A DNA stretch of 64,000 nucleotides from NCBI GenBank assembly GCA_963793795.1, contig CAWCBN010000010.1:345200-409199 (forward strand), written 5' to 3'. This document shows positions 4,152 to 45,851 of the stretch, piece after piece (the first letter of the stretch is position 1; each line of letters opens with the position of its first letter). Under the pieces are notes generated by a model. It ran no database searches. It was not told the DNA's origin and was given only the letters and a program-made list of their open reading frames with translations. Source of the stretch: an uncultured Chloroflexia bacterium. Its GTDB lineage: Bacteria > Chloroflexota > Anaerolineae > Anaerolineales > Villigracilaceae. A program made the position numbers and the translations under genes.

Positions 4152-6168
4152 CTATTTCAGGGATTTTTCAAACCAGCGCAATATATGGTTCAACCGGGCG
4201 ATGCGCCGGTCGGTACGCCCCGTGCGCGAGAGCCCATGGAATTCATCAGGGAAACGTACAAATTCAGTATCCACGCCCATCCGCTTGAGGGCGACGAAAA
4301 CCTGTTCACTTTGCTCGATCGGGCAGCGCAGGTCGCCTTCATTGTGAATGACCAACGTGGGGGTTTTGGCATTCTTGATATATGCCATTGGCGACATGTC
4401 CCACCATTTCTGAAAATCCTTGAAGGGGGGTTCTGCTTCGACTTCGTGTTCGAAGGTCCAGTTGATATCGCTTGAGCCCCATTCGCTGATAAAATTGCTC
4501 ACGCAGCGTTGGGTCACGGCGGCCTTGAATCGCTCGGTATGACCGATGATCCACACAGTCATGTATCCGCCGTACGAACCACCTGTTACACCCATGCGTT
4601 TCACGTCTATGTAGGGTTTCTTGGCGATGAAATCAGCCCATGCCATCAAGTCGGCATAATCCGCACCCCCCCAGGAGCCCCAGATCGCCCGGGCGTGTTC
4701 TTCGCCATATCCGCGTCCACCCCTGGGATTGCAGAAATGAACCACAAATCCTTTCGAGGCAAGGTAGTTGAATTCGTGCATAAAGAACTTGCCATATTGC
4801 GTGATCGGTCCTCCGTGGATCTCGAGGATGGAGGGGTACTTCTTTTTTGGGTCGAAGTGTGGTGGATACATGATCCAACCCTGCAGATCATTCCCCGCAG
4901 CACCCTTGAACCAAACCTCCTCCACGCGGCTCATCTCCAGGCTGTCGAGAAGGTCGCGGTTCAGGCGTGTCAGGTGCCGGGTTCGTCCGCCATCCGTCAG
5001 CTCACGGACGTAGATCTGCCCAATATCCTCCATCTGACCGAAGAAATAGGCGATCCTGGTCTGCGCTTTATCGAGGGTGAACGCGCCGACCGCGCCACCC
5101 TCCCCCACCACATCGCACAGGTCGTCGCCACTCACCGCAATGGATTTGAGCACTGCTGAACCATGGATGGCTGCCTGGAAGTAGAGCCGCTTGCCGTCCA
5201 GCGACCAGGTTGGTCGCATCCATTCAGTGGATCCGCAATCATTGATCACATCCGGGGAGGTGTGGATATCATAGCGGGCAGTCAGGTTTTTGGCCGGTTT
5301 TCCTCCGCTAACAGGAAGGATCCATAGGCGAATTGTTCTTATAACTATAGCCGAAACCTTTACCTTCCACTCCAAAGAATGCAATCCATTTGCCGTCAGG
5401 AGAAAAGGAAGGATACCACTTGGCGCCTTCAGGAGTTTTCAGTTTACGCGCCTCTCCTCCACTCACCGGCTGCAGGAAGAGGTCATCCAGTTCCTCCTGG
5501 TCCGGATCCGCAGTCCGGTTGGAGAGGAAGGCAATGGATTGACCATCAGGGGAAAAGGCCGGGTTGACCTCATCCCACACCGGGTGGTCGGTGATTTGCC
5601 GGCCTTTGCCAGTGCGGACATCAATGATCCAGATGTGGGTGCGCTCCTTTGGCAGGTAACCATAACCATCCAGCTTATAAAACAAGCGGTCGTAATGGCG
5701 GGCAACTACGCCTAATTTTTTCTTCTGCTCATCCTTTTCGCGCTCCAGCACATCGGCATCCGTTTTTCGGACTGTACAAAGCAGTTTGCGCCCATCCGGT
5801 GACCAGGAGATTTCACCGATCTCGCCTTCGATGGAAGTCAACTTGCGTGCTTCGCCACCGTCGAAGGGGATCAGGAAAATTTGAGCAGGCTTGTCCTTGT
5901 TGGAGCGATTCGAAAGGAAAGCGATGATTTTCCCATCCGGGGACCAGCGTGGAGAAGTGTCAGACTGGTCGCCATGGGTGAATTGTCTCGGCGCTCCCCC
6001 TTCCACCGGCACCAGCCACAGGTTGCTGAATTTCTTCTCGGTTTTCCGCTCCACCCGCTGGATGCGGTAGATCACATGCTTCCCATCCGGGGAGAGGCGG
6101 GGTTCAAACAATAGTTCAATGCGGTAGAGATCTTCGGCTGTGATCAAGCGTTTCTTGGCTGCAGGCAT
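4152..6168 (-). CDS. S9 family serine peptidase (acylaminoacyl-peptidase / prolyl oligopeptidase-like), one frameshift
   Basis: N-terminal beta-propeller part (5308..6168) has repeated SPDG blocks. C-terminal alpha/beta hydrolase part (4152..5384) has the GGSYGG nucleophile motif and a C-terminal HG. The pieces join at ...GYSYKN / RLWILPVSGG near 5340 (one extra base). Confidence 0.9.
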
Positions 6169-6259: not shown

Positions 6260-7093
6260 TTATAAAAATGTCTCCAGCATGTTCCCCACCTCGACCATAT
6301 TGAAGACTGGTCCATCCACGCACACCAGTTTCTCTCCCAGGTTGCACCGCCCGCATTTTCCCAGTCCGCAGTGCATGCGCGCCTCCAGGGTGACGTAATT
6401 CCATTCGGGTAAAAATCCCATCCTTGCCAGCAATCGAGTCGTGTGATGGATCATCACCGGGGGACCGCAGGTGATGGTCGCTGTATTCCTGGATGCAGGC
6501 GAGACTTTCTCCAATAACTGTGTGATAAGGCCGGTTTCATGCGTCCAATCCGCATCCGCGTTATCCACCGTGAGGTGCAGTGAGGTATCGGGGGCGGACC
6601 GCCACTCGTCATATTCATCGGTGAATACCAGCAGGTCAGGGCGGCGGGCAGCCCACAGGATGGTCAAATGTCCGTACTCGGCGCGGTGTTCGAGTACATG
6701 CTGGATGACCGGTCGCAGCGGTGCCCCGCCAATACCGCCACCCAGTACCACCAGGTTCTTGCCCTTGAACTTGTCCATCGGGAAATGATTGCCCAGCGGT
6801 CCTCGCACCCCCACGATATCACCGTCGCCCAATTCATGCAGACCGGTTGTCACGGTTCCAAGCCTTGCCACCGCGAATTCGATCACCGGTCCCCTCTCCA
6901 CTGCATTGGCGATCCCAAAGGGAGCTTCTCCCAATCCAAAGGCCGAGACAAAAGCGAATTGTCCAGGTAGATGGTTCTGAAATGCCCTACCAGCACCGTT
7001 CAACAATTCCAGTCGAAATAACTTGATCTCAGATGCCAGGTCGCGCACCTCAACCAGTTTCGCCAGGTGGGGCATCATCGGATTCCAGCTCAT
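6260..7093 (-). CDS. FAD/NAD(P)-binding 2Fe-2S oxidoreductase subunit (sulfhydrogenase gamma / FlxA / AsrB-like)
   Basis: Ferredoxin-reductase-type fold blocks (LVVLGGGIGGAPL) and C-terminal cysteine cluster CGLGKCGRCNLGEKLVCVDGP. The start ATG overlaps the upstream stop (ATGA). Confidence 0.75.
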   Translation of the reverse strand: MSWNPMMPHLAKLVEVRDLASEIKLFRLELLNGAGRAFQNHLPGQFAFVSAFGLGEAPFGIANAVERGPVIEFAVARLGTVTTGLHELGDGDIVGVRGPLGNHFPMDKFKGKNLVVLGGGIGGAPLRPVIQHVLEHRAEYGHLTILWAARRPDLLVFTDEYDEWRSAPDTSLHLTVDNADADWTHETGLITQLLEKVSPASRNTATITCGPPVMIHHTTRLLARMGFLPEWNYVTLEARMHCGLGKCGRCNLGEKLVCVDGPVFNMVEVGNMLETFL

Positions 7094-8103
7094 CTTATTA
7101 ACTCCAGGTCTGCCAGAATTTCACTGATGTCCACACCCGCCGGGCAGAGTTCGATGCAACGACCGCAACCGGTGCAGGCAATCCCGGCACCCAGGTGGTA
7201 TTGTTCGGGAAAATACAAAACCTTGCACATGAACCTGTTGCGCAGGCGATCGCCTTTTTCCGGGCGGGCACGATGTCCACCCGCCACGCGGCGATAGTTC
7301 TCACCGGCGCAACTATCCCAGCAGCGGATGCGCTCGAACTGACCAGGTTGCAACGCTTCATCGCGAACGACAAAGCATCGGCAAGTGGGGCAAACGTATG
7401 CGCAGGCACGGCAGGAAAGGCATCGCTCCGAAATTCTCTCCCAATATTGATCAGAAAAATGCTCCTTCCACTTCTCTTTTGAAAGATTCTGAAAACCTGT
7501 TTCCGAACGCGTATGGCTGTCCTCAGTTTCCTTCCACTCCCCGCCGGGTATCAGGAAACGGCCTTTCTCCGTCACGGCTTCAACCAGAAAGCCCTCGCTG
7601 GTTTCGTACAACATGATGTCCATTCCGCTGGAGTCGTCCGGGGTGCCACCTGTCGAGGTACAGAAGCAACTGGGACCCAATTCACGGCAAGCCAGGCCAA
7701 TCAGGGTGGTATTCTGGCGCCGACGGGCATAAAAGGGATCAACAGGATGGGTATCCATGAACAGGTTGTCCAGCAGCAAGGCGCCCCGGGCATCACACGG
7801 GCGAACACCGAAGACAACCGTTTCCCATTCAGGATAATTCTCCTCAAGGGCGATTTCCTGCCCGGTCTTCTGAATGGTGAACAATCGCTCCGTTGGTGGA
7901 AAAAAGGCTTCCTTCAGAGAGAGAAGCGGGCGAGTGAACGATGTTGCTATCTCCCCGCTGGTTTTCACACGCTTGTACAGGAGAACTCCGGATTTTTTAC
8001 TGGGAGCGATCAGGTTGCGCGCGGCAGCGATCCCATCCAGCCAACCCTGCATTTCGGTCCTTGAGATAAGCCAGTGCTTATGAAGAAGCATCGCATTGCT
8101 CAT
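7090..8103 (-). CDS. 4Fe-4S dicluster subunit (sulfhydrogenase beta / FlxB / AsrA-like)
   Basis: Cluster motifs CLSCRACAYVCPTC and CTGCGRCIELCP. Start chosen at MSNAMLLHK (8103), 1 nt after the upstream stop, rather than the longer ORF start at 8181. Confidence 0.7.
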   Translation of the reverse strand: MSNAMLLHKHWLISRTEMQGWLDGIAAARNLIAPSKKSGVLLYKRVKTSGEIATSFTRPLLSLKEAFFPPTERLFTIQKTGQEIALEENYPEWETVVFGVRPCDARGALLLDNLFMDTHPVDPFYARRRQNTTLIGLACRELGPSCFCTSTGGTPDDSSGMDIMLYETSEGFLVEAVTEKGRFLIPGGEWKETEDSHTRSETGFQNLSKEKWKEHFSDQYWERISERCLSCRACAYVCPTCRCFVVRDEALQPGQFERIRCWDSCAGENYRRVAGGHRARPEKGDRLRNRFMCKVLYFPEQYHLGAGIACTGCGRCIELCPAGVDISEILADLELIR

Positions 8104-8104
8104 C

Positions 8105-9448
8105 TCAGCCTTCCTTGTACTCACCGGAAAGAACTGTAACCACCGGGGATGGCACAACATCCACCCCGGCAAGGAAACCAAATTCTTCTTCCATCACTTG
8201 CGTCATCCTGCGGTTGAGCAGGCTGATGGGGATCTCCATTGGGCAGGCACGCTCGCATTCATTGCATCCCACACATCGACCTGCCAGGTGATATGCACGG
8301 ATAAGGTGAAAAGTGCGTTTTTCATTGTTGCGAATACCCATGCCAATCCAGGTTGAATCTTCCTGCTCTGCCAGGCAGGTGGGACAGTTGCACATTGGAC
8401 ATGCCTGGCGGCAGGCATAGCAACGGATGCAGCGGTCAAATTGGGAGATCCAGAATTCCATGCGTTCAGAGGGTGCGGCCGTCATAAGCTCGGACACTTT
8501 TTCTTCACAGCAGGATGTTAAGCGGGGAATGTAACGCGAGGTGGCACCCCCGATCAAGGTGTCACATACCGTCGGAACCGCCTCCTGGCAGGTGATGCAG
8601 CGGGTCTGAAGATCTCCATCGTGGTCGCAAATCCCTTCACAGGCCACGCCCAGTACATGCAGCTGGTCGCGTTGGAACTGGTTTTCCGCCAGCATCACGT
8701 TGATCGCTTTGCTGTCACACGGCTTGACCACCACTGCCACCTTCTTGGGAGGCTCCTTGCCAGAGGCTTTCAACTTGGACGGCAGATAGGATGTCAGGTT
8801 GTTGGTCGCCTGTGGATTCCATACCAGGCGGGCGGCATCCTCAGGAGAATATGCAAACGACGGGCGCGTCCGTCCATTCCTCCCAACCTCGTACCCGATG
8901 ACGCACCCGACCTCACCATTGCCAAGCAGCTCTTTTGCCTTGGCGCGGATGGCGTCTGTTTTCCCCGCGCAGTCAGTGACGGGCATCGGGATGGAAGCAG
9001 TGATCGATGGTAGAGCCTCCATAACAGGCTCCCAGGCGCCCGGGGGAATGCGCCAGGACGCAGGTCCCAGTTGGCGGACTGATTCGGTGAACTCGGTCAC
9101 GATATGAGCGAAGTGTTCGCCCTCGGAAGCAGAGACCCAGTCCAGGCGCAGCCGTTCAGGTTCGAGCCCAACAAAGGTTAACAGGTTGTGGAGGAGAGGA
9201 AATCGTTTTGCAGCACGGTGATTGCCGGAGTCGTAATGGCATTCCCCGATGTGACAACCGAGAATGATCACACCGTCAGCCCCCTGGTCGAAGGTCCGAA
9301 TGACCAGCTCGGGGGATACACGTCCGGAACAAGGCACGCGCACCGCGCGGATATTCGCCGGGGATTTCATCCTCGCAATACCAGCAGTGTCGGCTCCCGT
9401 GTAGGAACACCAAGTGCAGAGGAAGGCGATGATCTTGGGTTCGTACAT
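8105..9448 (-). CDS. MvhD-domain / 4Fe-4S ferredoxin fusion protein (FlxD-FlxC-like)
   Basis: N-terminus IIAFLCTWCSYTGAD...VPCSGRV...GADGVIILGCHIGECHY matches the methyl-viologen-reducing hydrogenase delta subunit fold. C-terminus has CIRCYACRQACPMC and CVGCNECERACP. Confidence 0.8.
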   Translation of the reverse strand: MYEPKIIAFLCTWCSYTGADTAGIARMKSPANIRAVRVPCSGRVSPELVIRTFDQGADGVIILGCHIGECHYDSGNHRAAKRFPLLHNLLTFVGLEPERLRLDWVSASEGEHFAHIVTEFTESVRQLGPASWRIPPGAWEPVMEALPSITASIPMPVTDCAGKTDAIRAKAKELLGNGEVGCVIGYEVGRNGRTRPSFAYSPEDAARLVWNPQATNNLTSYLPSKLKASGKEPPKKVAVVVKPCDSKAINVMLAENQFQRDQLHVLGVACEGICDHDGDLQTRCITCQEAVPTVCDTLIGGATSRYIPRLTSCCEEKVSELMTAAPSERMEFWISQFDRCIRCYACRQACPMCNCPTCLAEQEDSTWIGMGIRNNEKRTFHLIRAYHLAGRCVGCNECERACPMEIPISLLNRRMTQVMEEEFGFLAGVDVVPSPVVTVLSGEYKEG

Positions 9449-9486
9449 CCAATACTCCTAAGAGGATCTTTATCCTTGGTTCACCA

Positions 9487-12400
9487 TCAAGCCAGCGCGC
9501 CGATGATCTCAGCCACCAACTCGCGATCGTCAAAATGGATCAAGGTCACAGCCTTGTTTTGGCACGCGGCTGCGCACGTACCGCATCCTTTACAAAGGAA
9601 ACTGTTTACCTGTGCCACGGCATTGACCAACTCAACGGCGTGATACGGGCAGGCTGCCACACACTGCCCGCATCCGGCACATCTTTGCAAATCCACCTCG
9701 GCGATGGATGGGTCGAGGGCGATCATGCCCTGGTCCATGAGCGAGAGTGCTGCCGCCGAGGCGGCACCCGCCTGCGCCACGCTGTCTGGAATATCCTTGG
9801 GCGACTGGCATGCACCGGCAATGTAGATGCCTTCGCTGGCTGTTTCCACCGGGGCAAGCTTGGGATGCCGCTCGGAGAAGAATCCATCGCGTGTTCGGCT
9901 GATGCCAAATTTCGCCGCCACCTGCGCGGAATCCGCCTGCGGTTCGAAACCGGTCGCCAGGATGACCATATCCACATCCACGTGATCAGGCTGTCCATGG
10001 AAGGCTTCCGTCCAGGTAACTCGCAGGCCGTCATCCACGTGGGTGATATCATGCACCTTGCCGTGATGGAAGTTCACACCCATCTCTGCAGTGCGGTTGT
10101 AAAATTCTTCATATCCCTTGCCGAACGAGCGCATATCCCGATAGATCTCATGAACCTCGGCACCAATATACTCGTGGACCAATTGTGAAAACTTAAGTGA
10201 ATACATGCAGCAGGCGCGTGAACAATATTCGTTCGTGGTCGCATCGCGTGAGCCCACGCAATGGACAACAGCCACCCGTTTCGGTGTTCCCCCATCAGCG
10301 AGCAGTACTTTCCCGTTGGTGGGTCCGGAGGCATTGATCAGGCGTTCAAATTCAATGGCTGTCAGGATGTTCGCCAACTTTCCATGATTCAATTCGGGGA
10401 GGCGCGCGGGGTCAAAGTCACGAAAACCGGTCGCCAGGATGATGGTTCCCACCATAAACTCGTCATGGGTTTCTTTTGCATTGTGATCGATGGCTCCCCG
10501 GTCGCAGGCGGCTACGCATTCCAGGCACTCACCACAAGTCCCGCAGCGAACGCAGCGTTCAGCCTCGATGAGTGCTTCCTCTTCTGTAAGGGTCAGATCC
10601 ACCTCATTAAAATTGTGATAACGTTGCGCCAGCGGAATGGTGTGAATGCCAACCCTGTGTTTCCCGGAGGCCTCCCCATGAGCGATGCGCGTCCGCACTT
10701 CGGACTCGGTCAACGCCACGGTAGGTGGAAGGCTTGGCTCACTAATACCCGCAGCTCCCCGCAGGTAGCGATCCATGCAACGGGCGGCATGATGACCTTC
10801 ACCGATCGCATCCACCACGTAGAAGGTGGAACCGCGGTGAACATCACCGGCAACAAACACCCCCGGGAGCGTGGTCATCATCTCCTCATCGGAATCGATC
10901 CCGTTCCTGGCAAGCTTGACCAGCCCATCCTTAGGGAGAAATGACAGGTCGCAACCCTGACCGGTCGCCCAGATGACGATATCCGCCGGTAACACGTGCT
11001 CACTGCCGGGAAGTTCGTCGATCAGGATGCGCCCTTTTTCGTCGTAACCATGGTATTCCGTGCGCACGCATTTCACGCCGGTGACCTTGTCGTCCTCAAT
11101 GAGGATCTCCTTGAACATGGTGGCGCCGCACATTTTCACGCCTTCCTCTTCGGCGATCTCCACCTCCCACTCAAATCCGGTCATTTCACCCTTGGGCTTG
11201 CGGAAGATCATGCGGCATTCCCGTGCGCCGATGCGGATTGCGGAACGGGAACAGTCGAGGGCAACATTTCCGCCGCCGATGACCGCCACCCGTTTTCCGG
11301 TGAGATCGGGCGGGGTGCCAAGACATACCTGTTTGAGAAAAGGCAGGCTGAGCAGGTTGTCGGGATGATCCTTGCCCGGAATGTCCACCTTCTTGGCGAT
11401 ATGTGCACCCGAGGCAACCAGGACTGCATCAAATGGGTGAGCCGATGAACCCAGCCCGCCTGACAATAACCCGGGGATGTCATCGATCCAGGTATTGAGT
11501 TGCAATTCCACGCCCTCATCGAGGATCTGCTGGATCTCCCAATCGAGCATTTCATAGGGCAGGCGGTGGGGTGGGATGCCGACCCGGATCATGCCGCCTG
11601 CTTTCGGCTGGGCATCAAACACCTGCACCGCATGTCCGAGCCGCACCAGGTCAAGGGCAGCAGTCAGACCTGCCGGTCCGGCTCCGATCACGGCGACCTG
11701 TTTCCCCGTCGGCGTGGGTTTATGCTGGAAGGGAGTCCCGACGATGGACTTGTCGCGCATGTTCGGAAGCAGCTCACGATGAGCGTAAGCCCAATCCGCC
11801 ACGAAGCGCTTGATGCCCATGATATTGACGGGTTCATCCACCTTGCCGCGCGAGCAGGCAGCCTCACAGTTGCGGTTGCAAACACGTCCGCACACCGATG
11901 GGAAGGGATGCTCGCGGCGGATCGCCCAATAGGCATCCGCATAACGTTTCTGCCGGACCAGGGTGATATAACCCATGGCACGCTGGTCGGTGGGACAGGC
12001 AGCCCGGCACGGCGCCACACCCTTCTTGTCAATCACAAACGCACCGGGCACCGCCTGGGCTGAAAACCGGTAGGCTGCCTTGCGATTTGAGAGGCCGCGG
12101 TCAAACTCGTTGCTGACCTCCACCGGGCAAACGGAGGCGCAGTTGCTGCAGCCGGTACACTTGGTTTCATCCACGTAGCGCGGCTTGCGGCGGACCCGTA
12201 CCTGGAAATTTCCCACATAACCTGAAACAGACTCGATCTCGCTGTAAGCCAGGAGCTTTATTTTTGGGTGGCGTCCCACGGACACCATTTTCGGTGTAAG
12301 TATTCAGGCCGCACAGTCGAGCGTTGGGAAGGTCTTATACAGTTGGGCCATGTGCCCACCGATGCTCGACTCCCGCTCAACGAGATAGACCTGCTTCCCG

Positions 12401-12897
12401 GCGTCTGCCAGTTTTAGAGCCGCTTCGATACCCGCAATACCTCCACCGACGACAAGCGTGGCGGGAGTCATCTGTACCTGGCGCATGTCCAGCGGGTGAT
12501 GATAATGTACACGCTGGACCGCGGCAGAGACCAGAGAGCATGCTTTCGTGGTCGCCTGTTCCCGGTCCGCGACCACCCACGAGCAGTGTTCGCGGATGTT
12601 TGCCATCTGGAAGAAGAAAGGGTTCAACCCTCCCTCGGCGCAAGCCCGGCGAAAGGTCGGTTCATGCATCAGGGGCGAACAGGAGGCCACCACCACCCGG
12701 TTGACGCCCAGGTCCAGGATGTCCTGCTTGATGAGATCCTGTCCCGGGTCCGAGCACATGTAGGTGTAGTCGCGGGCAACGACCACGTTTTCCAATTTGC
12801 GGGCAAAATCGGTCACCGCGGCAACATCCACAGTCGCGGCGATATTCGTCCCGCAATGACAGACATAAACACCGGTTTTTATCTTGGAAAGATTCAT
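9487..12897 (-). CDS. hdrA: HdrA-like flavoprotein with inserted GltD/NfnB-like NAD(P)H module; predicted selenoprotein (TGA at 12304-12306 read as Sec)
   Basis: ORFs 12304..12897 and 9487..12288 are in the same frame, separated by TGA plus 5 codons (TFPTLDCAA-U-ILTPK-MVSVGRHP). HdrA hallmarks: VYVCHCGTNIA, GGGIAGIEAAL, C-terminal CAGCGQCVAACP / CKGCGTCAAAC. The internal module has PCRAACP, VCGRVC, VAVIGAGPAGL and VAVIGGGNVALD. Confidence 0.85.
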
Positions 12898-12967
12898 GCA
12901 CTCTCCTGTTGACTGCCTGGCAGCTTACCTGAGCACACTTGTCATTTGACTCACGCGGCGAACCGGC

Positions 12968-14953
12968 TCATGCCAGGGATAAAATACCATCAATCTCCGC
13001 CATGAGCTGGTCATTGGTGAAGCCGTTCTGGACGGCTGCACCAGCCGGACAGGCGGCAACGCAGGCTCCGCATCCCTTGCACAATACCTCGTTAACCTGC
13101 GCGACTTGTTTTCCATTCCATTCGACCATCGAGACAGCGCCATAAGGACACAGCCCTTCGCAGGTGTGACAGGCGCCACATTTTTCTGCAACGATGTATG
13201 AAGTGAACGGCTCCAGGTCCACCGTACCATGATCGAGAAGGGAGATTGCCGCGGCAGCTGCTGCTCCGCCGTGGGCGACACTATCCGGGATGTCCTTCGG
13301 TCCCTGGCATGTGCCCGCCAGGAAAATACCGTCACTCATGGTTTCCACCGGTGCCAGCTTGGGGTGCTTCTCCAGGAAGAATCCATCCGGGCTGCGGCTG
13401 ATCCCAAACCGGGCACCCACCTCGTGCTGGTCGTCCTGGGGTTCCATGCCGGTGGAAAGGACGACCATGTCCACGGCCGTCTTGAGCGTTTGCCCGCTAT
13501 ACACATCCCTGGCAATGACCGCTAACCGCCCATCAGTCTGCTCGACGCGAATGTCGCCATCGAAGCGGGCGAAATGAACTCCATGGTCCTCGGCGCGGTG
13601 GTAAAAGTTCTCGTAATCCTTTCCAAAGGCGCGCATATCCCGGTAGAACTCCACCACTTCCGCACCCACGTATTCCCTTACCAAGGTGGCTAGTTTTAAG
13701 GAATACATGCAGCAAACGCGTGAGCAATATTCGTTTTCAACTCCACGTGAGCCGACACAATGCAGGATTGCCACCTTCCTTGGTTTTTCTCCATTCTTGA
13801 GCAACACCCTGCCGCTTGTCGGACCGCCGGTATTGATCAGTCGTTCCATCTCCATGCCGGTGAAAACATTCGGCAAGGTGCCATAGCCATATTGAGCAGC
13901 CCGGTGCGGGTCAAAGTCGCTAAAACCGGTCGCCAGGATGATCGTGCCAACTTCGATCTCCTCGTGTTGTTCCACCTGTTCAAAGTCGATCGCCCCCACC
14001 GTGCAGAATTTTTCACAGGCGCGGCATTTCCCGGACTTGAAATAGGCGCAGTTCACGGTGTCGATGACCGGGACGCGCGGCACCGCCTGCGGGAATGGGT
14101 AATAGATGGCGGCACGGTTGCCCCACCCAAGGTCGAACTCGGAGGGGATCTTCTTCCACGGGCATTTATCAATGCAGGTTCCGCAACCGGTGCACAAGGA
14201 CTCGTTCACATAGCGCGGCTTGCGGCGAACGGTCACGGTGAAGTTGCCCACATAGCCGGCAACGTTTTCGACCTCGCTGTAGGTCATCAGCTTGATGTTG
14301 GGGTGGCGTCCCACGGACACCATCTTGGGGGTGAGTATTCAGGCTGCGCAATCGAGGGTTGGAAATGTTTTGTACAGGCGCGACATGTGCCCGCCGATGG
14401 ACGGTTCGCGCTCCACCAGGGTTACCTGTTTGCCCGAATCAGCCAGGCGGAGGGCTGCCTCGATCCCGGCGATCCCCCCTCCGACAACCAGCGCGGCCTG
14501 CTTCAGCCCCACCTGGCGCATTTCCAGCGGCACCTGCCAGCCCACGCGCCGCACAGCAGCCGCCACCAGCGCCTTGGCTTTCTCCGTTGCGGCAACGGGA
14601 TCCGCAGTGACCCACGAACAGTGCTCACGGATGTTGACCATCTGGAAGAGGAAGGGATTTAAGCCTGCCTCGGCGCAGGCACGCCGGAAGGTGCCCTCAT
14701 GCATGTTCGGACTGCAGGAGGCCACAACAATGCGGTCCAACCCTTCCTTGCGGATATCTTCAGCAATGAACGCCTGGCCGGGGTCTGAGCACAGGTAGGC
14801 ATAGTGGCGGGTAACGGTCACATGGGGCAGGGTAGCAGCAAATTGGGTGACTGCTTCCACATCCACAGTTGCGGCAATGTTCGTGCCACAGTGGCAAACA
14901 TAAACGCCGACGCGGGGCGAACCCTGCTTCGGCGCGGGTTGGGAGATCGTCAT
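12968..14953 (-). CDS. hdrA: Heterodisulfide-reductase subunit A-like flavoprotein; predicted selenoprotein (TGA at 14339-14341 read as Sec)
   Basis: ORFs 14339..14953 and 12968..14323 are in the same frame, separated by TGA plus 5 codons (TFPTLDCAA-U-ILTPK-MVSVGRHPNI). Canonical HdrA layout of about 661 aa: CHCGTNIA, GGGIAGIEAAL, inserted ferredoxin CTGCGTCIDKCP, C-terminal CGACHTCEGLCP / CKGCGACVAACP. AAGGAGA lies before the ATG. Confidence 0.9.
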
Positions 14954-15038
14954 GGCAGCGTCTCCTTTCCTTCAGGCAGCGATGAACTTACCAATAGTGC
15001 CACCTCTTCGGTAGATATGAAAATTTATCTTGGTATCA

Positions 15039-15057
15039 TTGTGTGATTTTTACACAA
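15039..15057. promoter_or_regulatory. Candidate operator palindrome upstream of the hdrA operon
   Basis: TTGTGTGATTTTTACACAA (6-bp arms TTGTGT/ACACAA). It lies about 85-105 nt upstream of the hdrA start at 14953. It resembles CRP/FNR or Rex half-sites (TGTGA / TTGTGAA...TTCACAA) but with imperfect spacing. Confidence 0.3.
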
Positions 15058-15130
15058 GGAGATTTAAGTGATATTCATCCTCTCTTCCGGTGCAGGATGG
15101 CAGGCGCCAATTCCGCTGTTTTTCCTCCCC

Positions 15131-17720: not shown

Positions 17721-18196
17721 GAACGAATGGGATGTCACTGCCAATTCCGAGAGATCGCATTTGAGGAACATCGAGGAACAATTAATCTTAAGCTTTCCTG
17801 GTGGAAAGAACGCTTGAATGGTCCCATGGTTTGATAGGAATTCGGAGAATGGCTCGGTGAGGAAGGAGGTCAGATTCATGGTTGCAGGAGAGAAAAAAAG
17901 ACGGCAGGGAAGAAACAGCCTTCCCGTGCCGATGGAGGGATTATAACACAAATGTTCTAATTGGATAAAGGGGAAAAAACACTCATTTGCTTTAAGTACT
18001 AATCGAAAATGCTTTCTTCAACAGATTGGCTGGGTGAGGGCACACCAGCAGGGCTTCCCCGTTCAGGGATGTCAGACCATCAGTACGTCTTGGACAAAAA
18101 GCAGGTTATTTTCATTCCCATTCTTTTATATCTATACTGTAGGGGATGCTATATAATGATCAGATAGCAATCTTAATTGACACGTGAAAGGATTTC

Positions 18197-19367
18197 ATGG
18201 ACAGATTATTTAAACAACCATTTGACGACATTGGGGAGAATGAATTAAGGATATTGTTGATAGAAAAGTTCGAGAATATGTTAGTTTGGATTATAAACAA
18301 TTGTATAGCAATAATCATAAGGGGATCGTAGATCTTCTTACAGATGTTACTGCAATGGCAAATTCTAGGCGGGGTATATCATTATTGGCATTGAAGAAGA
18401 TTTCAGGCGCATCCGATGGTACTCCTAAATGTATTGTTGGTATCGAGAATGGAGATATTGAAGCCAATCGGATACAAAATGTGTGTTTTGATTCTATTGA
18501 TGAAATAATTATTGGCCTTCGTGTCCGAGACATTCCATTAAGCAATGGAAAGCATTGTGTAATTATCCAAATCCCCAATAGTGTAAAAAAACCTCATATG
18601 GTGTTGTACGAAACACCGTTTATTTTCTACCAGACATGGAAGATCGAATATAAGAATGGACATGAAACAGGTTAGGACATGGTGATTAGCATGACTTCAT
18701 ATCAGACATCATTACAATCATTTATTGAGAACCGTGTGAAGGAAAATTTAGAATTCGCTCACTCTGTCCCTTTATTCTATTCATGGCCACTCCAATTTAC
18801 GTGGGCGAGAAAAGTTGGATCCCCTTCAAGAAAAATATCGGAACCTTTTTGATAATGAATATGAGCAGTATATACAAGATTATCAATATGATGGTGTGTA
18901 TGCAGGTAAAACCCATCCCAGGATATTTGGCATTGAAGGAATAATCCAAATCTCCATCTCCAGATAACATTCCTCTGAAGCGTTTACGACTTTATAGAAA
19001 TGGGCATTTCGAATTTTACAGAAATAATGTTCCTTATCCAGATGAGAATCGGCCCCAAAACGAATGCCAATATCCCCGTATCTCATTGTTGCAGAATCAT
19101 TAAATTTCTTATCTGTTATGCGACAAGTAATTACGATTTCCGAAATTACCGATCCTTTAGCGATTACATTAATCTTGGATCTGTATGTCGAGACTTCAAT
19201 TGCACGATAGATATAGATTGCAATCTGAAAATTTAGTATGGAATGATATATTATTACAAATAGATATAACCGTGACCGATCTTGATAAATTGGAAGAAAT
19301 TGCTTCTTATATAATGGATCGAATATACAATTCCTATGGATATGAAAAAGAACCTCCACTTCGATGA
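18197..19367 (+). pseudogene. AlbA_2 (Schlafen-like putative DNA-binding) domain protein, at least 5 frame disruptions
   Basis: Pieces found in three frames: MDRLFKQPFDDIGENELRILLIEK / VREYVSLDYKQ...VTAMANS / AGYIIIGIEED / DGTPKCIVGIENGD...GKHCVIIQIPNSVKKPHMV / RHGRSNIRMDMKQVR / ...EEIASYIMDRIYNSYGYEKEPPLR. This follows the AlbA_2 pattern (EFK...AfaN..GG.iiiGv...P). One break is a shortened A-run. Confidence 0.5.
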
Positions 19368-20081
19368 AAATATGAAATTCAAATTAAGAGATGGTATCCG
19401 TTTAGATAAGTAATTAGAAGAAATCAATCAATTAAGACAGGCTGGGCCGGAAAAGGGCGGTGTAATCCTGGCAAAATGGCTATTCGAGGTGATCATGAAG
19501 GGATGGATAGGATCGTATAATTTGTGAATTTTATTGGTTGGAAAATGTGTCGGGTATTTATGCTTATCCTTTACACTTGTCCTAGCACAGGGGTAGGATA
19601 TATAATGAATTAACCAAATATCTAGAAAACCGCTTTGCTATATTTAGCGAAAAGGAAATCCTATGTCCTGTTTGAGTGGAATACTATTTATCTTAGGATT
19701 GCCTCTTCGTACCGTTTACGCCCTCCAGAAAAAACTGAACAAAAGAATAAGTTATGGCTCGTTATAGGTATAATTTTCATAGCCGTGGGGGGTGTTTTAT
19801 TATTCTTCAAATGACCAAAACTGCACAAATTCTTGCGGTGATCCTAAGAATTGCATAGATTTGCATTAATTCGATATCTTTACTCAATCGAACAAAAAGA
19901 CCGATGCTTCTCGATACTTTTTGTCCTGACTCCTACTATAAGAGGTAAATACTCAGTATTCATTGTAGAAATGCTAGAATTGCAATGTAGATCAACCTTA
20001 CAAATCGCCTTGGATAACTACTATTATCGTATAATTATTAGTTACAATCGAGGGATTAGTTTTCTTCATCGAAGTAAACTT

Positions 20082-20664
20082 ATGAACGTTTATCGCCAAA
20101 AACTACTAAATACGGTCTTGTTCTTTGCTATAGAAATGAAATATCTAAAATTAACTAAGTTGATGAAGCTTCTTAACTTCTTCGACTTTGAGCACTTTAA
20201 GGAACAGGATATCCATCAATAGGTTTAGAATATTATGCCTTTGCCAAAGGTCCAGTCCCAAAGAAATTCTGGTTAGAAATAAAAGACGGAGAACCCCCAG
20301 CGGACATGCTGGATAAGTGGCAATTTTAGAAAAACGGCACTGGGATTTTAGAAAAAAGTAATTGAATTTATTCCAAAGCCTAAAGTGCTAGTGGACTACA
20401 CGTATATCATGTGGTCGTGAAGAAAGCAATACTTGAAAAGTTGGCGTTTATTTACAAAGACGCGGATGCTGCAACAATGTCGAAAATTTCACATGAAGCT
20501 GAGAAGCCTTGGGAAATTACAATAAAGGAAAAAGGCTTAAACGCAGAGATTGATTATATGTTAGCTATTGACGAGAGCTCTCCAATAAAACGTGAAGAAG
20601 GTCGGAAAATTTGCATGACCTTTTTGAAATTATGAAAGCGTTTGATATTGAACCTGCGAAATAA
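20082..20664 (+). pseudogene. Panacea (DUF4065, SocA-like) antitoxin-domain protein, at least 3 frame disruptions
   Basis: MNVYRQKLLNTVLFFAIEMKYLKLTKLMKLLNFFDFEHFKE / GYPSIGLEYYAFAKGPVPKKFWLEIKDGEPPADMLDKWQF matches the DUF4065 core (K.qKLLYf.Df.h...G..itG..Y.A...GPVP). The C-terminal piece is ...SHEAEKPWEIT... / MKAFDIEPAK. Confidence 0.65.
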
Positions 20665-20667
20665 AAT

Positions 20668-21094
20668 ATGCCACAACCCGGGGATATTATCTTTTTTTCT
20701 CTAAGGAGTATACATTTGAAGATGGGAGTAAAGGGGATAAATTGTTTGTTGTCCTAAATACTCCTGATCTTGAAGAACCTTGTTCTGTTTTAAAAAACCA
20801 CCTCTCTCAACCAGCAAGGTATTTTCATTGTGTCAGGGGATGCAATAGTAATGACAGGTGTTTTTTTGCCCCGAAATCATGGCAGGTGTGCTTTAAAGTG
20901 GATACCTATATTCAACTTCCACAGATAATTGAATTTCCAGCTGCCAATCTTTTAAGAGATCGTTTTGCGGAATTATTAATTTCATACCCCCGCTTTCAGC
21001 TGATTGTCTTGCACAACTAAAAAGCTGTTTGGCAACTTTCAAGGATGATATATCTCAAACCCATTGGGCATTTATTTATAAAGCGAAATCATAA
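20668..21094 (+). pseudogene. Putative toxin partner of the Panacea antitoxin (unassigned family), frame-disrupted
   Basis: ATG lies 3 nt after the antitoxin stop. Sequence MPQPGDIIFF / SKEYTFEDGSKGDKLFVVLNTPDLEEPCSVLK..SQPARYFHCVRGCNSNDRCFFAPKSWQVCFKVDTYIQLPQIIEFPAANLL / ...LSADCLAQLKSCLATFKDDISQTHWAFIYKAKS. Assignment is by position only. Confidence 0.35.
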
Positions 21095-21119
21095 TCTCTC
21101 TTTTTTATTTGAGACATTG

Positions 21120-21341
21120 AATTCTATTTTGAAACGATTGGAAGGAATTCCGACTATAAAGGTGGCTCGGGTTGGCAAATCCGGAGCGATTTATTGCTTG
21201 TTATTCTTGCGCCGATTTTGAAGGGATACGTCGGAAAGGGCAACGACGGTCATACTGGAAATGCCCTAGGTGTAATCCACTTGCACATCAACAATTACAC
21301 CATCTAAAACGATCCCAGCAGGAATATACTCTGGTAAGCAT
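21120..21341 (-). pseudogene. Ghost 5' fragment of a second, low-GC comM/yifB homologue (about residues 1-75)
   Basis: Minus strand reads MLTRVYSC / AGIVLDGVIVDVQVDYT*GISSMTVVALSDVSLQ / AINRSGFANPSHLYSRN. The intact comM has [67 protein letters not shown]. The fragment contains a stop and frameshifts. Confidence 0.6.
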
Positions 21342-21469
21342 CAGAAATGGTTAGATGTGGATAGACTTAATCAATGGGGGAAAATATAACAAAGTCGAAA
21401 GCAAGTATTAAATTAGTTTATGGAGATTTACAATTGTCCCACCATGGAAAATTTGAGTACTTTAGGCGC

Positions 21470-21589
21470 ATGATGAAAGTATCCCCCTCCCGGAAAAAAT
21501 CGAATAAAGGAAAAACTCCTTTCATTACCTTATGCGAGGCAGGGAAAATAAGGCATGAATTAGCGGAAAAACAATCGGTAGAAAGCTGG
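21470..21589 (+). pseudogene. Ghost 5' fragment of a hexosaminidase-like gene
   Basis: AGGCGCATGAT..ATCCCCCTCCCGGAAAAAATCGAA at 21465-21515 mirrors the true hex start at 25285-25335 (MINIIPLPEKIE). Similarity extends upstream to CACCATG (21438 vs 25257). The fragment is truncated by the 3' end of the STAND gene. Confidence 0.4.
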
Positions 21590-24500: not shown

Positions 24501-24893
24501 ACCCGCCGGATCCATCCGCGTTTTTTCCAGCCTGGGCTGCGCCTGTGTTTATCCCCATGCGTACTTTGATGGGTGTATCCCCCCAATTTTCAGTCTGCAA
24601 TCCACGCTGTGCAGCGAGGGCGGCATCTAGTGCTGCGCCTGCGGTGTGGAATGCGACGCAAAATGCATCACCAATGATCTGAAAAACATGACCCCTCGTG
24701 ACTGTATCATCGCCGACTGCAAAATGGCGTGATGGCGTTCTCTCAGTGCCTCCCAGGTGTCGCGATGTTCCTGGGCGAGTTTGGTGCTGCCTTCGATGTC
24801 GGTGAATAGGAAGGTGACGGTGCCGGAGGGGAAAGTAGACACGCTGATCCTCCCATCCCCCGGATGATATCTTCCTGCCCGGGGAATGTTCAC
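21590..24893 (-). CDS. Class III adenylate/guanylate cyclase - NB-ARC/AAA ATPase - TPR (STAND) signalling protein; 2-3 frameshifts plus one in-frame TGA
   Basis: Cyclase blocks SGTVTFLFTDIEGST and HVFQIIGDAFCVAF (frame change near 24700). P-loop VTLTGSGGVGKT, then LLLLDNCEHL and DGIPLAIELAA. The TPR-like C-terminal half is 22097..23338 (frame change near 23340). TGA at 22097-22099 is in frame with ORF 21590..22084. Confidence 0.85.
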
Positions 24894-45510: not shown

Positions 45511-45851
45511 GGCAGCGGCAGTTCAAAAGTGCCCTGCGTCCCGGCGGGAAAGTCCAGGACACGGAGCACGGCATCCAAATTTAGAAAGCCATAAATATGG
45601 GGGAATAACTCATCCGCCTTGTCGGTGCCAGGTTCCCAGCGGATATCCGGCTCGACCACGGCAGGATCAATTTCAAGCAGCACCAGTCCGCTTTGACCAC
45701 GATAAAATGCGTTGGCGACGCGCACGACCTGGTCAGAAGTGGAACAATGGATAAATCCCTGGCTGGCCAATGAGTTGGCGCGATAAGCACCCGTTTCCTG
45801 GGCGGCAGCCCAGGCAAGCCGGGTGGTAATGTGGTAGATCAACCTGCTCAT
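45507..45851 (-). CDS. DUF952 domain protein
   Basis: MSRLIYHITTRLAWAAAQETGAYRANSLASQGFIHCST..Q....AN.FY......LVLLEID...V...IRWE......ELFPHIYG.LN..AV matches my recollection of DUF952. Confidence 0.75.
   Translation of the reverse strand: MSRLIYHITTRLAWAAAQETGAYRANSLASQGFIHCSTSDQVVRVANAFYRGQSGLVLLEIDPAVVEPDIRWEPGTDKADELFPHIYGFLNLDAVLRVLDFPAGTQGTFELPLP

What the first reader, a model, noticed from the sequence alone, without database searches (positions are those of the whole stretch)
6260..14953. HdrA-HdrA(NfnB)-MvhD/FeS-FlxB-FlxA-like operon without HdrBC
- Five co-directional, tightly spaced or overlapping genes (ATGA overlap at 7090-7093; 1-nt gap at 8104).
- They encode two Sec-HdrA flavoproteins, an MvhD-ferredoxin fusion, a 4Fe-4S subunit and an FAD/NAD(P)/2Fe-2S subunit.
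- This resembles the Flx(Flox)ABCD-HdrABC NADH-dependent systems described in Desulfovibrio, but in reversed order.
- It also has two NAD(P)H-type entry points: the FlxA-like subunit and the NfnB-like insert.
- No HdrB/HdrC (CCG-domain) gene is in the window, so the disulfide or other terminal acceptor is not evident.
- It is also the longest stretch of the window (8.7 kb) with no frame disruption.
Basis: partly seen in the sequence, partly recalled or inferred. Interest (0 to 1): 0.65.

Follow-up and report, generated by a model that had tools for sequence, protein, structure and literature searches.

The report
HdrBC-less HdrA–HdrL–Flx redox operon
This is a real five-gene operon, conserved in many uncultured Anaerolineae, for a soluble iron-sulfur flavoprotein complex that looks like a heterodisulfide reductase without its disulfide-reducing subunits and probably shuttles electrons between NADH, NADPH and ferredoxin.

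Summary
Window 6260-14953 (minus strand) carries five tightly packed genes:
- a selenocysteine HdrA;
- a selenocysteine HdrA with a ~500-aa NfnB/GltD-like insert ("HdrL" type);
- an MvhD fused to an FdhB/FlxC-like FeS module;
- a HydB/FlxB-like FeS protein;
- a HydG/FlxA-like FAD/NAD(P)H/[2Fe-2S] protein.

Neither the window nor the operon flanks encode HdrB or HdrC.

Among related Chloroflexota loci with enough upstream sequence, 44 of 53 show the same five genes in the same order with no CCG gene upstream. Six more distant relatives lack the HdrL gene. They instead carry hdrB, with hdrC read in one of them, directly upstream of a single Cys-type HdrA. That is the canonical Flx-Hdr layout. 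So an ancestral HdrCB looks to have been swapped for a duplicated HdrA plus an NfnB-type port.

The parts are known. HdrL was described in Desulfobacterium and ANME-1, and Flx-Hdr in Desulfovibrio. This combination, and its spread in Anaerolineae, did not turn up in the literature I searched.

My best mechanistic guess, at modest confidence, is a ferredoxin-coupled NADH/NADPH transhydrogenase-like bifurcating complex built on an HdrA/HdrL heterodimer. I rate it a new variant of a known kind, of moderate interest.

The parts
14954..15130 (-). Upstream intergenic region of the operon. It is AT-rich and carries the Shine-Dalgarno-like GGAAAGGAGA before the hdrA1 ATG.
   Evidence: Sequence read. 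No consensus sigma-70 site was found on the minus strand, so the promoter itself is not identified.
12968..14953 (-). hdrA1: a 661-aa selenocysteine HdrA (71.6 kDa) with an FAD-binding thioredoxin-reductase domain and six [4Fe-4S] sites. Sec is at residue 205.
   Evidence: Translation. Pfam and NCBIfam results. Full-length match to PDB 5odc_A at E = 1e-219. All cluster cysteines of the solved HdrA are conserved.
14339..14341 (-). In-frame TGA (Sec205) of hdrA1, equivalent to Cys197 of the solved HdrA.
   Evidence: The position is TGA in 85 and TGC in 5 of 90 orthologous copies.
14304..14322 (-). SECIS-like hairpin of hdrA1: an 8-bp stem with a GUG loop, starting 16 nt after the UGA codon.
   Evidence: strand folding. 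The same hairpin appears in loci L001, L002 and L004. Its z-score is only about -1.4, so the support is conservation and position, not folding energy.
9487..12897 (-). hdrL: a 1136-aa selenocysteine HdrA (123.3 kDa) that carries an NfnB/GltD-like insert. Sec is at residue 198.
   Evidence: PDB 5odc_A matches in two stretches that flank the insert. All HdrA cluster cysteines are conserved.
12304..12306 (-). In-frame TGA (Sec198) of hdrL.
12269..12287 (-). SECIS-like hairpin of hdrL, with the same sequence as the hairpin in hdrA1.
10498..12045 (-). NfnB/GltD-like insert of HdrL (about residues 285-800). It has a Fer4_20 two-cluster domain and FAD- and NAD(P)H-binding Rossmann motifs, and it interrupts the inserted ferredoxin domain of HdrA. 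The helix-plus-Cys segment that is N-terminal in NfnB lies at its C-terminal end, so the module is circularly permuted.
   Evidence: Pfam Fer4_20 at residues 295-373 and Pyr_redox_2 at 400-698. PDB 9bov_A at 1e-83, 9n5u_A, 8oh5_C and 4ylf_B at 2e-62, with alignments.
9056..9448 (-). MvhD ([2Fe-2S]) domain of the fusion protein P3, residues 1-131.
   Evidence: Pfam FlpD at 4e-51. PDB 5odc_D at 9e-47. Foldseek 5odh_D.
8105..9055 (-). FlxC/FdhB-like FeS module of P3, residues about 132-447. It has fifteen conserved cysteines, among them two CxxCxxCxxxC ferredoxin-type motifs.
   Evidence: The C-terminal part matches FdhB/ElpB (7bkb_E at 8e-24, 8rvu_E). The AlphaFold model (pLDDT 69.6) gives Foldseek matches to 7bkb_E and 8rvu_E over about 374 columns, and to FrhB and HCAR. 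Conserved Cys are listed.
7090..8103 (-). P4: a 337-aa HydB/ShyB/AsrA/FlxB-like FeS protein (Fer4_22).
   Evidence: Pfam. NCBIfam ShyB at 2e-54, below the cut-off. PDB 9nez_B, sulfhydrogenase I beta, at 5e-40.
6260..7093 (-). P5: a 277-aa HydG/AsrB/FlxA-like FAD/NAD(P)H/[2Fe-2S] protein.
   Evidence: Pfam NAD_binding_1 plus DHODB_Fe-S_bind. PDB 9nez_C at 5e-48 and NfnA 4ylf_A at 1e-16.

Best explanation
The five genes form one operon for a soluble, FeS-rich flavoprotein complex of the Flx-Hdr kind. In this version the disulfide-reducing HdrBC module has been replaced by a second HdrA paralog and an NfnB/GltD-type pyridine-nucleotide module.

**Proposed wiring** (inferred by homology with the solved Mvh-, Fdh- and Elp-Hdr complexes):
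- HdrA1 and HdrL form a heterodimer. Each donates its selenocysteine (the Cys197 equivalent) to the partner's N-terminal [4Fe-4S] cluster.
- The FlxA-like subunit exchanges a hydride with NAD(P)(H).
- Electrons then pass through the FlxB-like subunit, the FlxC/FdhB-like half of P3 and its MvhD [2Fe-2S] cluster to the bifurcating FAD of the HdrA core.
- The low-potential branch leaves through the inserted ferredoxin domains. In HdrA1 this domain is free to reduce ferredoxin. In HdrL it is wired into the NfnB-like FAD/NAD(P)H site.

**Predicted reaction.** The complex has three visible ports: two pyridine-nucleotide sites and one ferredoxin site. No disulfide site is present. I therefore think it most likely catalyses a reversible, ferredoxin-coupled exchange between the NADH and NADPH pools, as Nfn and Stn do (Fd_red + NADH + 2 NADP+ <-> Fd_ox + NAD+ + 2 NADPH, or a close variant).

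**How sure each part is.** The gene content, the Sec codons, the synteny and the absence of HdrBC are shown. The heterodimer, the electron path and the net reaction are inferred.
For: **Anatomy**
- Gene structure, domains and cofactor motifs.
- No transmembrane segments.
- Both HdrA paralogs keep every cluster cysteine of the solved HdrA and carry Sec at Cys197.
- That residue ligates the partner's N-terminal cluster, and tandem HdrA genes have been proposed to form heterodimers (PMC9012536).

**Conservation**
- The five-gene order is strictly conserved in 44 species-level Chloroflexota loci with no CCG gene upstream.
- All 6 loci without the NfnB insert have an HdrB-like CCG gene upstream and a single Cys-type HdrA.
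- This perfect anticorrelation argues that HdrL together with the extra HdrA functionally replaced HdrBC.
- A rough NJ tree places HdrA1 and HdrL as sister paralogs, with the HdrB-linked HdrA outside them.

**The NfnB-like module as a nucleotide port**
- A second cluster type (hdrC-hdrB, fused HdrL/HdrA, mvhD, with no Flx genes; L071) resembles Sfum_0819-0824 (PMC5947623). There the NfnB insert is the only visible NAD(P)H port. So the window operon holds two nucleotide ports and no acceptor other than ferredoxin.
- The insert resembles most closely the GltD-like NADPH domains of the transhydrogenase StnA and of NfnABC (9bov_A, 8oh5_C, 9n5u_A).

**Electron-path template**
- PMC12350162: donor, then HA1/HA2, then the MvhD cluster, then FAD'. 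HA4' leads to HdrC. HA3 leads to HA5'/HA6' in the inserted ferredoxin domain.
Against: - There is no biochemical, expression or proteomic evidence. No RNA run holds this sequence.
- Both HdrA paralogs keep the four Cys of cluster HA4, the gateway to HdrC. That fits a still unidentified high-potential partner.
- The NfnB-like module sits on what is the low-potential exit in canonical HdrA. That position is awkward for a simple Nfn-type energy scheme.
- The nucleotide specificity of both sites is unknown.
- Some relatives have two HdrL copies per HdrA (L002, L004, L007, L044, L046), so the stoichiometry is unsettled.
- I saw only 64 kb of the genome. An hdrBC, hdrD or dsrC elsewhere cannot be excluded. 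The search was inconclusive.
Confidence: 0.4

Rival explanations
1. The complex is still a disulfide (or other high-potential acceptor) reductase. It bifurcates electrons from NAD(P)H to ferredoxin and to a partner encoded elsewhere, such as HdrBC, HdrD, a DsrC-like protein or another thiol carrier, which docks at the conserved HA4 cluster.
For: - The HA4 ligands are conserved in both paralogs.
- Thermodynamically, NAD(P)H-driven ferredoxin reduction needs a high-potential acceptor. That is established knowledge of flavin-based bifurcation (PMC5861303).
- Other Hdr clusters with hdrCB exist in related genomes, sometimes right next to this module (L071 and L083).
Against: - No CCG gene lies next to the module in 44 of 44 syntenic loci, and none lies anywhere in the 64-kb window.
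- The hdrCB found near the module in L071 belongs to its own complete cluster, with its own HdrL/HdrA fusion and MvhD.
- The loss of hdrCB coincides exactly with the gain of HdrL.
Confidence: 0.27
2. The complex is an electron-input module. It is a non-bifurcating or confurcating NAD(P)H:ferredoxin (or polyferredoxin) oxidoreductase that feeds or drains low-potential electrons for another enzyme, and it has no transhydrogenase role. The two nucleotide sites simply accept both NADH and NADPH.
For: - In NfnABC and Stn the GltD-like domains are plain NADPH entry sites, not the bifurcating centre (PMC11829005 and PMC10482914; abstracts seen).
- The Flx-type module is regarded as an NADH dehydrogenase (PMC4287179; PMC10920352).
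Against: - Uphill reduction of ferredoxin from NAD(P)H alone is not feasible without a coupled exergonic branch.
- Keeping two complete HdrA flavoproteins would be unexplained.
Confidence: 0.18
3. The last two genes are the beta and gamma subunits of a group 3b [NiFe] sulfhydrogenase, or of an AsrAB sulfite reductase, and the cluster serves H2, sulfur or sulfite metabolism.
For: The best solved-structure matches are P. furiosus sulfhydrogenase I beta and gamma. The NCBIfam hits are ShyB, HydB, AsrA and HydG, AsrB.
Against: - All scores lie far below the equivalog cut-offs, for example 185 bits against 690.
- No hydrogenase or AsrC match appeared among the window ORFs scanned with Pfam or among the called genes of loci L001-L005. 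The other 80 loci were not searched for these subunits.
- The same two proteins are FlxB and FlxA in Flx-Hdr systems.
Confidence: 0.04
4. The TGA codons are real stops or sequencing errors, and the hdrA genes are broken. The window does contain indel-type frame disruptions.
For: pheT, pheS, an S9 peptidase and metF appear split in this window. That shows the assembly is error-prone.
Against: - Both TGAs are in frame, at the codon of Cys197.
- The position is TGA in 85 and TGC in 5 of 90 copies in the related loci, and it is followed by a conserved hairpin.
- Sec at this position is documented for HdrA (PMC2702500; PMC1794560 listed).
Confidence: 0.02

Closest known systems
FlxABCD-HdrABC (Flox/Hdr) NADH dehydrogenase/heterodisulfide reductase of Desulfovibrio vulgaris and other anaerobes (Ramos et al. 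2015, as cited in PMC10920352 and PMC4287179)
   Same: - FlxA-, FlxB- and FlxCD-like subunits with the same domain content and nearly the same sizes, next to an HdrA.
- A soluble complex.
- Distant Chloroflexota relatives of this very cluster carry hdrB directly upstream of hdrA, with hdrC read in L084.
   Different: - No HdrB or HdrC.
- Two HdrA paralogs instead of one, both with selenocysteine.
- One paralog carries an NfnB-like NAD(P)H module.
- The gene order is reversed.
- I made no direct sequence comparison with the Desulfovibrio proteins, because I could not obtain their sequences.
HdrL, the 'large' HdrA/glutamate-synthase fusion of Desulfobacterium autotrophicum HRM2 (PMC2702500). The same architecture occurs in Syntrophobacter fumaroxidans HdrABC/HdrL (PMC5947623) and as ANME-1 HdrA9-11 (PMC9012536).
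   Same: [quoted passage not shown]
- Followed by an mvhD gene.
- Often a selenoprotein.
- Tandem arrangement with a plain hdrA is known.
   Different: - Here it is combined with a Flx-type NAD(P)H module and lacks HdrBC, FdhAB and DsrABC neighbours.
- The lineage is Anaerolineae (Chloroflexota), not Desulfobacterota or ANME.
- No HdrL-containing enzyme has been characterised biochemically in the literature I could search.
Ferredoxin-dependent transhydrogenases NfnAB (4ylf, 5jca), Stn (8oh5, 9bov) and NfnABC/Bfu (9n5u)
   Same: - A GltD/NfnB-like FAD plus 2x[4Fe-4S] NADPH module, with best PDB matches of 1e-83 to 2e-62.
- An FNR/PyrK-like FAD/[2Fe-2S] subunit distantly like NfnA.
- A predicted ferredoxin port.
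   Different: - The scaffold between the sites is an HdrA dimer plus MvhD and FlxBC-like FeS proteins, not NfnA or NuoF-type subunits.
- The candidate bifurcating flavin is the HdrA FAD.
- The activity is untested.
Mvh-, Fdh- and Elp-HdrABC complexes of methanogens (5odc, 7bkb, 8rvu; PMC12350162)
   Same: - The HdrA core has all cluster ligands.
- An MvhD connector is present.
- The FeS module attached to MvhD is FdhB/ElpB-like.
- The complex is obligately dimeric through Cys197/Sec.
   Different: - The donor is NAD(P)H through FlxAB-like subunits rather than H2, formate or F420H2.
- There is no HdrBC and no heterodisulfide.
- A heterodimeric core is predicted.

Membership tests
FlxABCD-HdrABC (Flox/Hdr) | FlxA: an FAD/NAD(P)H-binding subunit with a [2Fe-2S] cluster | tested here: met
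   P5 has NAD_binding_1 plus DHODB_Fe-S_bind. It weighs 30.3 kDa against 31.0 kDa for D. vulgaris FlxA. There was no direct alignment to FlxA.
FlxABCD-HdrABC (Flox/Hdr) | FlxB and FlxC FeS subunits, and FlxD (MvhD-like), with C and D fused in D. vulgaris | tested here: met
   P4 carries Fer4_22 and is HydB-like. P3 is MvhD plus an FeS module of 49.2 kDa, against 54.1 kDa for FlxCD.
FlxABCD-HdrABC (Flox/Hdr) | An HdrA flavoprotein encoded next to the flx genes | tested here: met
   Two HdrA genes, both complete.
FlxABCD-HdrABC (Flox/Hdr) | HdrB (two CCG domains with non-cubane clusters) and HdrC in the same cluster | tested here: not met
   - No CCG motif in any frame of the window.
- No PF02754 among the scanned ORFs.
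- None upstream in 44 of 44 syntenic loci, but present in all 6 loci that lack the NfnB insert.
HdrL-type HdrA (HdrA/GltD fusion) | An NfnB/GltD-like insert with FAD and NAD(P)H motifs inside the inserted ferredoxin domain of a complete HdrA | tested here: met
   It matches the descriptions in PMC2702500 and PMC9012536.
HdrL-type HdrA (HdrA/GltD fusion) | Co-located mvhD gene | tested here: met
   P3 starts 38 nt downstream of hdrL.
NfnAB transhydrogenase | Stand-alone NfnB with two [4Fe-4S] clusters, FAD and an NADPH site | tested here: not met
   The module is present only as an insert in HdrL and is circularly permuted relative to NfnB. Its NCBIfam scores are below the cut-offs.
NfnAB transhydrogenase | An NfnA partner (FAD, [2Fe-2S], NAD site) forming a heterodimer with NfnB | tested here: inconclusive
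   P5 matches NfnA only weakly (4ylf_A at 1e-16) against 5e-48 for sulfhydrogenase gamma. Physical pairing cannot be tested with these tools.
NfnAB transhydrogenase | Ferredoxin-dependent NADH:NADP+ transhydrogenase activity | not testable with these tools
   This needs an enzyme assay.
Sulfhydrogenase (group 3b [NiFe] hydrogenase, alpha-beta-gamma-delta) | Beta and gamma subunits at equivalog level | tested here: not met
   ShyB scores 184.6 bits against a cut-off of 690. HydG scores 168 bits against 650.
Sulfhydrogenase (group 3b [NiFe] hydrogenase, alpha-beta-gamma-delta) | [NiFe] large (alpha) and small (delta) hydrogenase subunits in the cluster | tested here: not met
   Pfam scans of the window ORFs and the called genes of loci L001-L005 show no hydrogenase subunit next to the module. 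Loci L006-L085 were not searched for these subunits.
Bacterial selenoprotein HdrA | In-frame UGA at a position that is Cys in homologs, followed by a SECIS hairpin | tested here: met
   The hairpin rests on conservation and position, because its folding z-score is weak. The Sec machinery (selABD, tRNA-Sec) is not in the window, so it remains untested.

The most novel reading that the evidence does not exclude
The operon encodes a further structural class of ferredoxin-dependent NADH/NADPH transhydrogenase, alongside NfnAB, NfnABC/Bfu and Stn. It would be built on a selenocysteine-containing HdrA/HdrL heterodimer with two candidate bifurcating flavins (the HdrA FAD and the NfnB-like FAD). It would have arisen in Anaerolineae when the HdrBC module of a Flx-Hdr complex was replaced. 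It would then be a main redox-balancing enzyme of a very abundant, mostly uncultured soil, sediment and wetland lineage.
Probability: 0.3. Interest if true: 0.7.

Novelty: new variant of a known kind. Interest (0 to 1): 0.5.

Why it matters
HdrA is one of only four known scaffolds for flavin-based electron bifurcation. All characterised HdrA enzymes use HdrBC or a substrate-specific partner as the high-potential exit.

Here the module drops HdrBC, doubles HdrA and adds an NfnB-type port, and it is conserved in dozens of species. A relative of its MvhD fusion protein is encoded in more than 500 species genomes, although that count also includes the canonical HdrB-linked type. This makes it a clean natural experiment on what HdrA can do without a disulfide.

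It gives the long-hypothetical HdrL proteins a defined, self-contained context that can be expressed and assayed. It may also explain how Anaerolineae balance NADH, NADPH and ferredoxin.

A practical point follows. Gene callers split both selenoproteins at the TGA, so the system is largely missed in current annotations.

Tried and rejected
- **Exact look-up of the P3 protein** in the contig collection found nothing. The window's own contig context beyond 64 kb could therefore not be read.
- **Search for HdrB in the source genome.** I queried with an Anaerolineales HdrB and looked for a hit on the 484,417-bp source contig. None was among the top 120 hits, all at 71% identity or more. This is inconclusive, not a negative.
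- **Expression.** No public run holds the sequence closely. DNA runs share at most 0.12 of the sampled words and RNA runs share none. Laying wetland metatranscriptome contigs at 80% likeness gave only short pieces on conserved HdrA stretches from other organisms. That is not usable as co-expression evidence.
- **Promoter and terminator scan.** It gave nothing above shuffled expectation on the minus strand.
- **Profile comparison of P3 with P4.** It aligned only the C-terminal FeS domain. The apparent shared (K/R)PCD...G(V/L)xC(E/R) motif in the preceding domain is my own reading and is unverified.
- **Sulfhydrogenase, AsrAB and stand-alone Nfn membership.** All rejected on score cut-offs and missing partner subunits.
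- **Pseudogene reading of the TGAs.** Rejected on conservation.
- **Structure prediction of HdrL.** Not attempted, because model coordinates are not returned and cluster-to-cluster distances could not have been measured.

Full report
**1. What is in the sequence**

The finding's interval holds five minus-strand genes:
- hdrA1, 14953-12968
- hdrL, 12897-9487
- P3, 9448-8105
- P4, 8103-7090
- P5, 7093-6260

The intergenic distances are 70, 38, 1 and -4 nt. All five genes have ATG starts and Shine-Dalgarno-like motifs. No protein has a hydrophobic stretch typical of a membrane helix.

Upstream lie an acyltransferase and a ComM/Mg-chelatase-type ATPase. Downstream lies an S9 peptidase behind a 91-nt spacer. 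The operon therefore begins and ends inside the window.

**2. The two HdrA genes and their selenocysteines**

HdrA1 (661 aa) matches the crystallised M. thermolithotrophicus HdrA over its full length (5odc_A, E = 1e-219).

HdrL (1136 aa) matches the same structure in two pieces that flank a ~500-aa insert.

Each gene has one in-frame TGA within the same motif TLDCAA-U-ILTPKM. The codon aligns with Cys197 of the solved HdrA. According to Chadwick et al. (PMC9012536), that residue ligates the N-terminal FeS cluster of the partner protomer and makes HdrA an obligate dimer.

The evidence that these are genuine Sec codons:
- An identical 8-bp hairpin with a GUG loop starts 16 nt after each UGA codon and recurs in orthologs. 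Its folding energy alone is not significant.
- In the 44 related five-gene loci the position is TGA in 85 copies and TGC in 5. This Sec/Cys interchange is the classic signature of a real Sec codon.

All cysteines that build the six [4Fe-4S] clusters of HdrA are conserved in both paralogs. That includes the four ligands of HA4, the cluster that normally hands electrons to HdrC.

**3. The insert in HdrL**

Residues ~285-800 carry a Fer4_20 two-cluster domain plus FAD and NAD(P)H Rossmann motifs.

The best solved relatives are the GltD-like domains of:
- the transhydrogenase StnA (9bov_A at 1e-83; 8oh5_C);
- NfnA of the Bfu-type NfnABC (9n5u_A);
- NfnB itself (4ylf_B at 2e-62; 5jca_L).

The helix-plus-Cys segment that is N-terminal in NfnB lies at the C-terminal end here, as it does in Stn.

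The insert splits the inserted ferredoxin domain between its two Cys motifs. This is the HdrL architecture named in Desulfobacterium autotrophicum (PMC2702500). The same architecture was described for ANME-1 HdrA9-11 (PMC9012536). It has been detected in the proteome of S. fumaroxidans but has never been characterised enzymatically (PMC5947623; PMC12142623).

**4. The other three proteins**

- **P3** is an MvhD domain (5odc_D at 9e-47) fused to an FeS module. The C-terminus of that module matches FdhB/ElpB of the Fdh-Hdr and Elp-Hdr complexes (7bkb_E at 8e-24). An AlphaFold model of moderate confidence (pLDDT 69.6) matches FdhB/ElpB over ~374 columns, and also FrhB and HCAR. Fifteen cysteines outside the MvhD part are invariant or nearly so in 24 homologs.
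- **P4** is homologous to P. furiosus sulfhydrogenase I beta (9nez_B at 5e-40).
- **P5** is homologous to sulfhydrogenase I gamma (9nez_C at 5e-48), and more weakly to NfnA and PyrK. All of these scores lie far below the NCBIfam equivalog cut-offs.

In size and domain content, P5, P4 and P3 equal FlxA, FlxB and FlxCD of D. vulgaris (31.0, 39.4 and 54.1 kDa; PMC10920352). I could not align them directly.

**5. No HdrBC**

- A loose CCG-domain pattern finds nothing in any of the six frames of the 64-kb window.
- Pfam scans of 42 other ORFs found no CCG domain.

**6. Relatives**

Homologs of HdrL and P3 are very numerous in metagenomes. The named ones are almost all Anaerolineales or Chloroflexota MAGs. 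Nearly all HdrL homologs are called as ~930-aa fragments, which means they are cut at the same TGA.

A scan of one genome per species found at least 564 stretches that encode a P3 relative. The best 80 loci are Chloroflexota, apart from one Acidobacteriota-labelled MAG.

My tblastn and motif analysis of 85 loci showed:
- Of 53 loci with at least 5.7 kb upstream, 44 show HdrA-HdrL-P3-P4-P5 with no CCG gene upstream. The other 3 did not meet my automated thresholds.
- Variants carry a second HdrL copy.
- The 6 loci without an NfnB insert have P3 at 41-46% identity to the window's. Every one has a single Cys-type HdrA with an HdrB-like CCG gene directly upstream. In L084 I read the full order hdrC-hdrB-hdrA-P3-P4/P5. 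This is the canonical Flx-Hdr arrangement.

A rough NJ tree without support values places the HdrA1 and HdrL clades as sisters, with the HdrB-linked HdrA outside them.

The simplest history is that an ancestral hdrCBA-flxDCBA cluster duplicated hdrA, one copy acquired the NfnB-like module, and hdrCB was lost.

Two genomes (L071 and L083) also carry a separate hdrC-hdrB, fused HdrL/HdrA, mvhD cluster without Flx genes. It is analogous to Sfum_0819-0824.

**7. Mechanism**

The template comes from the Mvh-, Fdh- and Elp-Hdr structures (PMC12350162):
- donor flavin/FeS, then HdrA N-terminal clusters HA1/HA2, then the MvhD [2Fe-2S], then the bifurcating FAD of the partner HdrA;
- the high-potential electron goes through HA4 to HdrC and HdrB;
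- the low-potential electron goes through HA3 to HA5/HA6 of the inserted ferredoxin domain, where polyferredoxin or ferredoxin binds.

Mapped on this operon:
- P5, P4 and P3 form the NAD(P)H-linked arm.
- HdrA1 and HdrL form the dimeric core.
- HdrA1 offers a normal ferredoxin port.
- The ferredoxin port of HdrL is wired into an NAD(P)H-binding flavin module.

In clusters that have HdrL plus HdrBC but no Flx genes, the NfnB-like module must be the nucleotide port. Here there are two nucleotide ports, one ferredoxin port and no disulfide site. The exact anticorrelation between HdrL and HdrB within this cluster family (44 to 0 against 0 to 6) suggests that the new port replaced the disulfide port.

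I therefore favour a reversible ferredoxin-coupled NADH/NADPH exchange, Nfn- or Stn-like, at about 0.4 confidence.

The main rival, at about 0.27, is that a high-potential partner encoded elsewhere still docks at the conserved HA4. Minor rivals are a plain NAD(P)H:ferredoxin input module, a sulfhydrogenase or Asr role, and broken genes.

**8. Known or new**

All the building blocks are known. HdrL, tandem HdrA heterodimers, Flx-Hdr and Sec-HdrA are all in the literature.

My full-text searches found no description of this HdrBC-less HdrA-HdrL-FlxDCBA combination or of its prevalence in Anaerolineae. The library is incomplete. For example, I could not read the 2021 review of HdrA modules by Appel et al., which is cited in PMC10920352.

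I rate it a new variant of a known kind, with interest 0.5.

**9. Limits**

- I have no expression, proteomic or biochemical data.
- Only 64 kb of the genome was visible.
- The P3 model has moderate confidence.
- The tree is a simple distance tree.
- The window shows indel-type frame breaks in essential genes. It probably comes from an error-prone long-read assembly, but the operon itself reads through cleanly apart from the two conserved Sec codons.

Noticed in passing
window 56899-61428 (minus strand): A pheS-pheT operon sits behind a T-box leader (RF00230, 61169-61428). Both essential genes are frame-disrupted. pheT is split into 58851-59537 (tRNA_bind) and 56899-58884. pheS (60424-61149) stops after about 91 of 246 positions of the catalytic-core profile. 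This suggests indel errors in the assembly rather than real pseudogenes.
   Followed up: partly
window 4152-6168 (minus strand): An S9 prolyl-oligopeptidase-type protease is split into a PD40 beta-propeller ORF (5308-6168) and a catalytic ORF (4152-5384). The two ORFs overlap by 77 nt in different frames, which indicates a frameshift.
   Followed up: partly
window about 18000-21500: A low-GC island (36-41%, against about 55-60% around it) contains only short ORFs. One is a Schlafen/AlbA_2 fragment (18286-18675). There are no meaningful repeats. It may be decayed foreign DNA.
   Followed up: partly
window 27162-28532 (minus strand): A dnaA gene, complete with its N-terminal, ATPase and C-terminal domains, shows that the window lies near the chromosomal replication origin. 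I looked for neither the origin nor DnaA boxes.
   Followed up: no
window 62734-63871 (minus strand): A partial MTHFR (MetF) ORF covers profile positions 99-262 and appears split from its N-terminal part. MetF is a known partner of HdrABC-MvhD in acetogens, but here it lies 48 kb from the hdr operon and has no metV beside it.
   Followed up: no
window 42283-53091 (minus strand): Two large DUF2298 membrane proteins (649 and 1284 aa) and two PMT_2 glycosyltransferase-like proteins form a cluster with methyltransferases and a GT4 enzyme. Its strong positive AT skew (0.14-0.25) presumably reflects a cell-envelope glycosylation locus.
   Followed up: no
L071 11900-18458 and L083 14242-21339: Next to the five-gene module, two related genomes carry a second Hdr cluster. 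In L071, where I read the genes, it runs hdrC-hdrB, then a 1518-aa fusion, then mvhD. The fusion joins an N-terminally truncated HdrL (Cys type) to a complete HdrA. The layout resembles the fused-HdrA type of Moorella and the S. fumaroxidans HdrABC/HdrL cluster.
   Followed up: partly
L025, L027, L034 (HdrA/HdrL genes upstream of position 10001): Natural Cys (TGC) variants occur at the Sec position of HdrA and HdrL in three related species. They would be convenient for heterologous expression without the Sec machinery.
   Followed up: partly
L002, L003, L007, L015 (extra HdrL upstream) and L004, L005, L044, L046 (two HdrL in tandem): Some relatives carry two diverged HdrL copies per HdrA. The NfnB parts are about 58-87% identical to the window's. 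These may be isoforms with different nucleotide specificity.
   Followed up: no
L011 13956-15709 and L076 2488-4173: A second, distant (about 30-43% identity) HydB/HydG-like gene pair lies near the module in two loci. I did not examine it. It could be AsrAB or a true sulfhydrogenase beta-gamma pair.
   Followed up: no
window 22097-24600 (minus strand): Adjacent AAA_22/AAA_16 NTPase and TPR_12 proteins, with a further TPR ORF at 21590-22084, border the low-GC island. The arrangement is STAND-NTPase-like.
   Followed up: no
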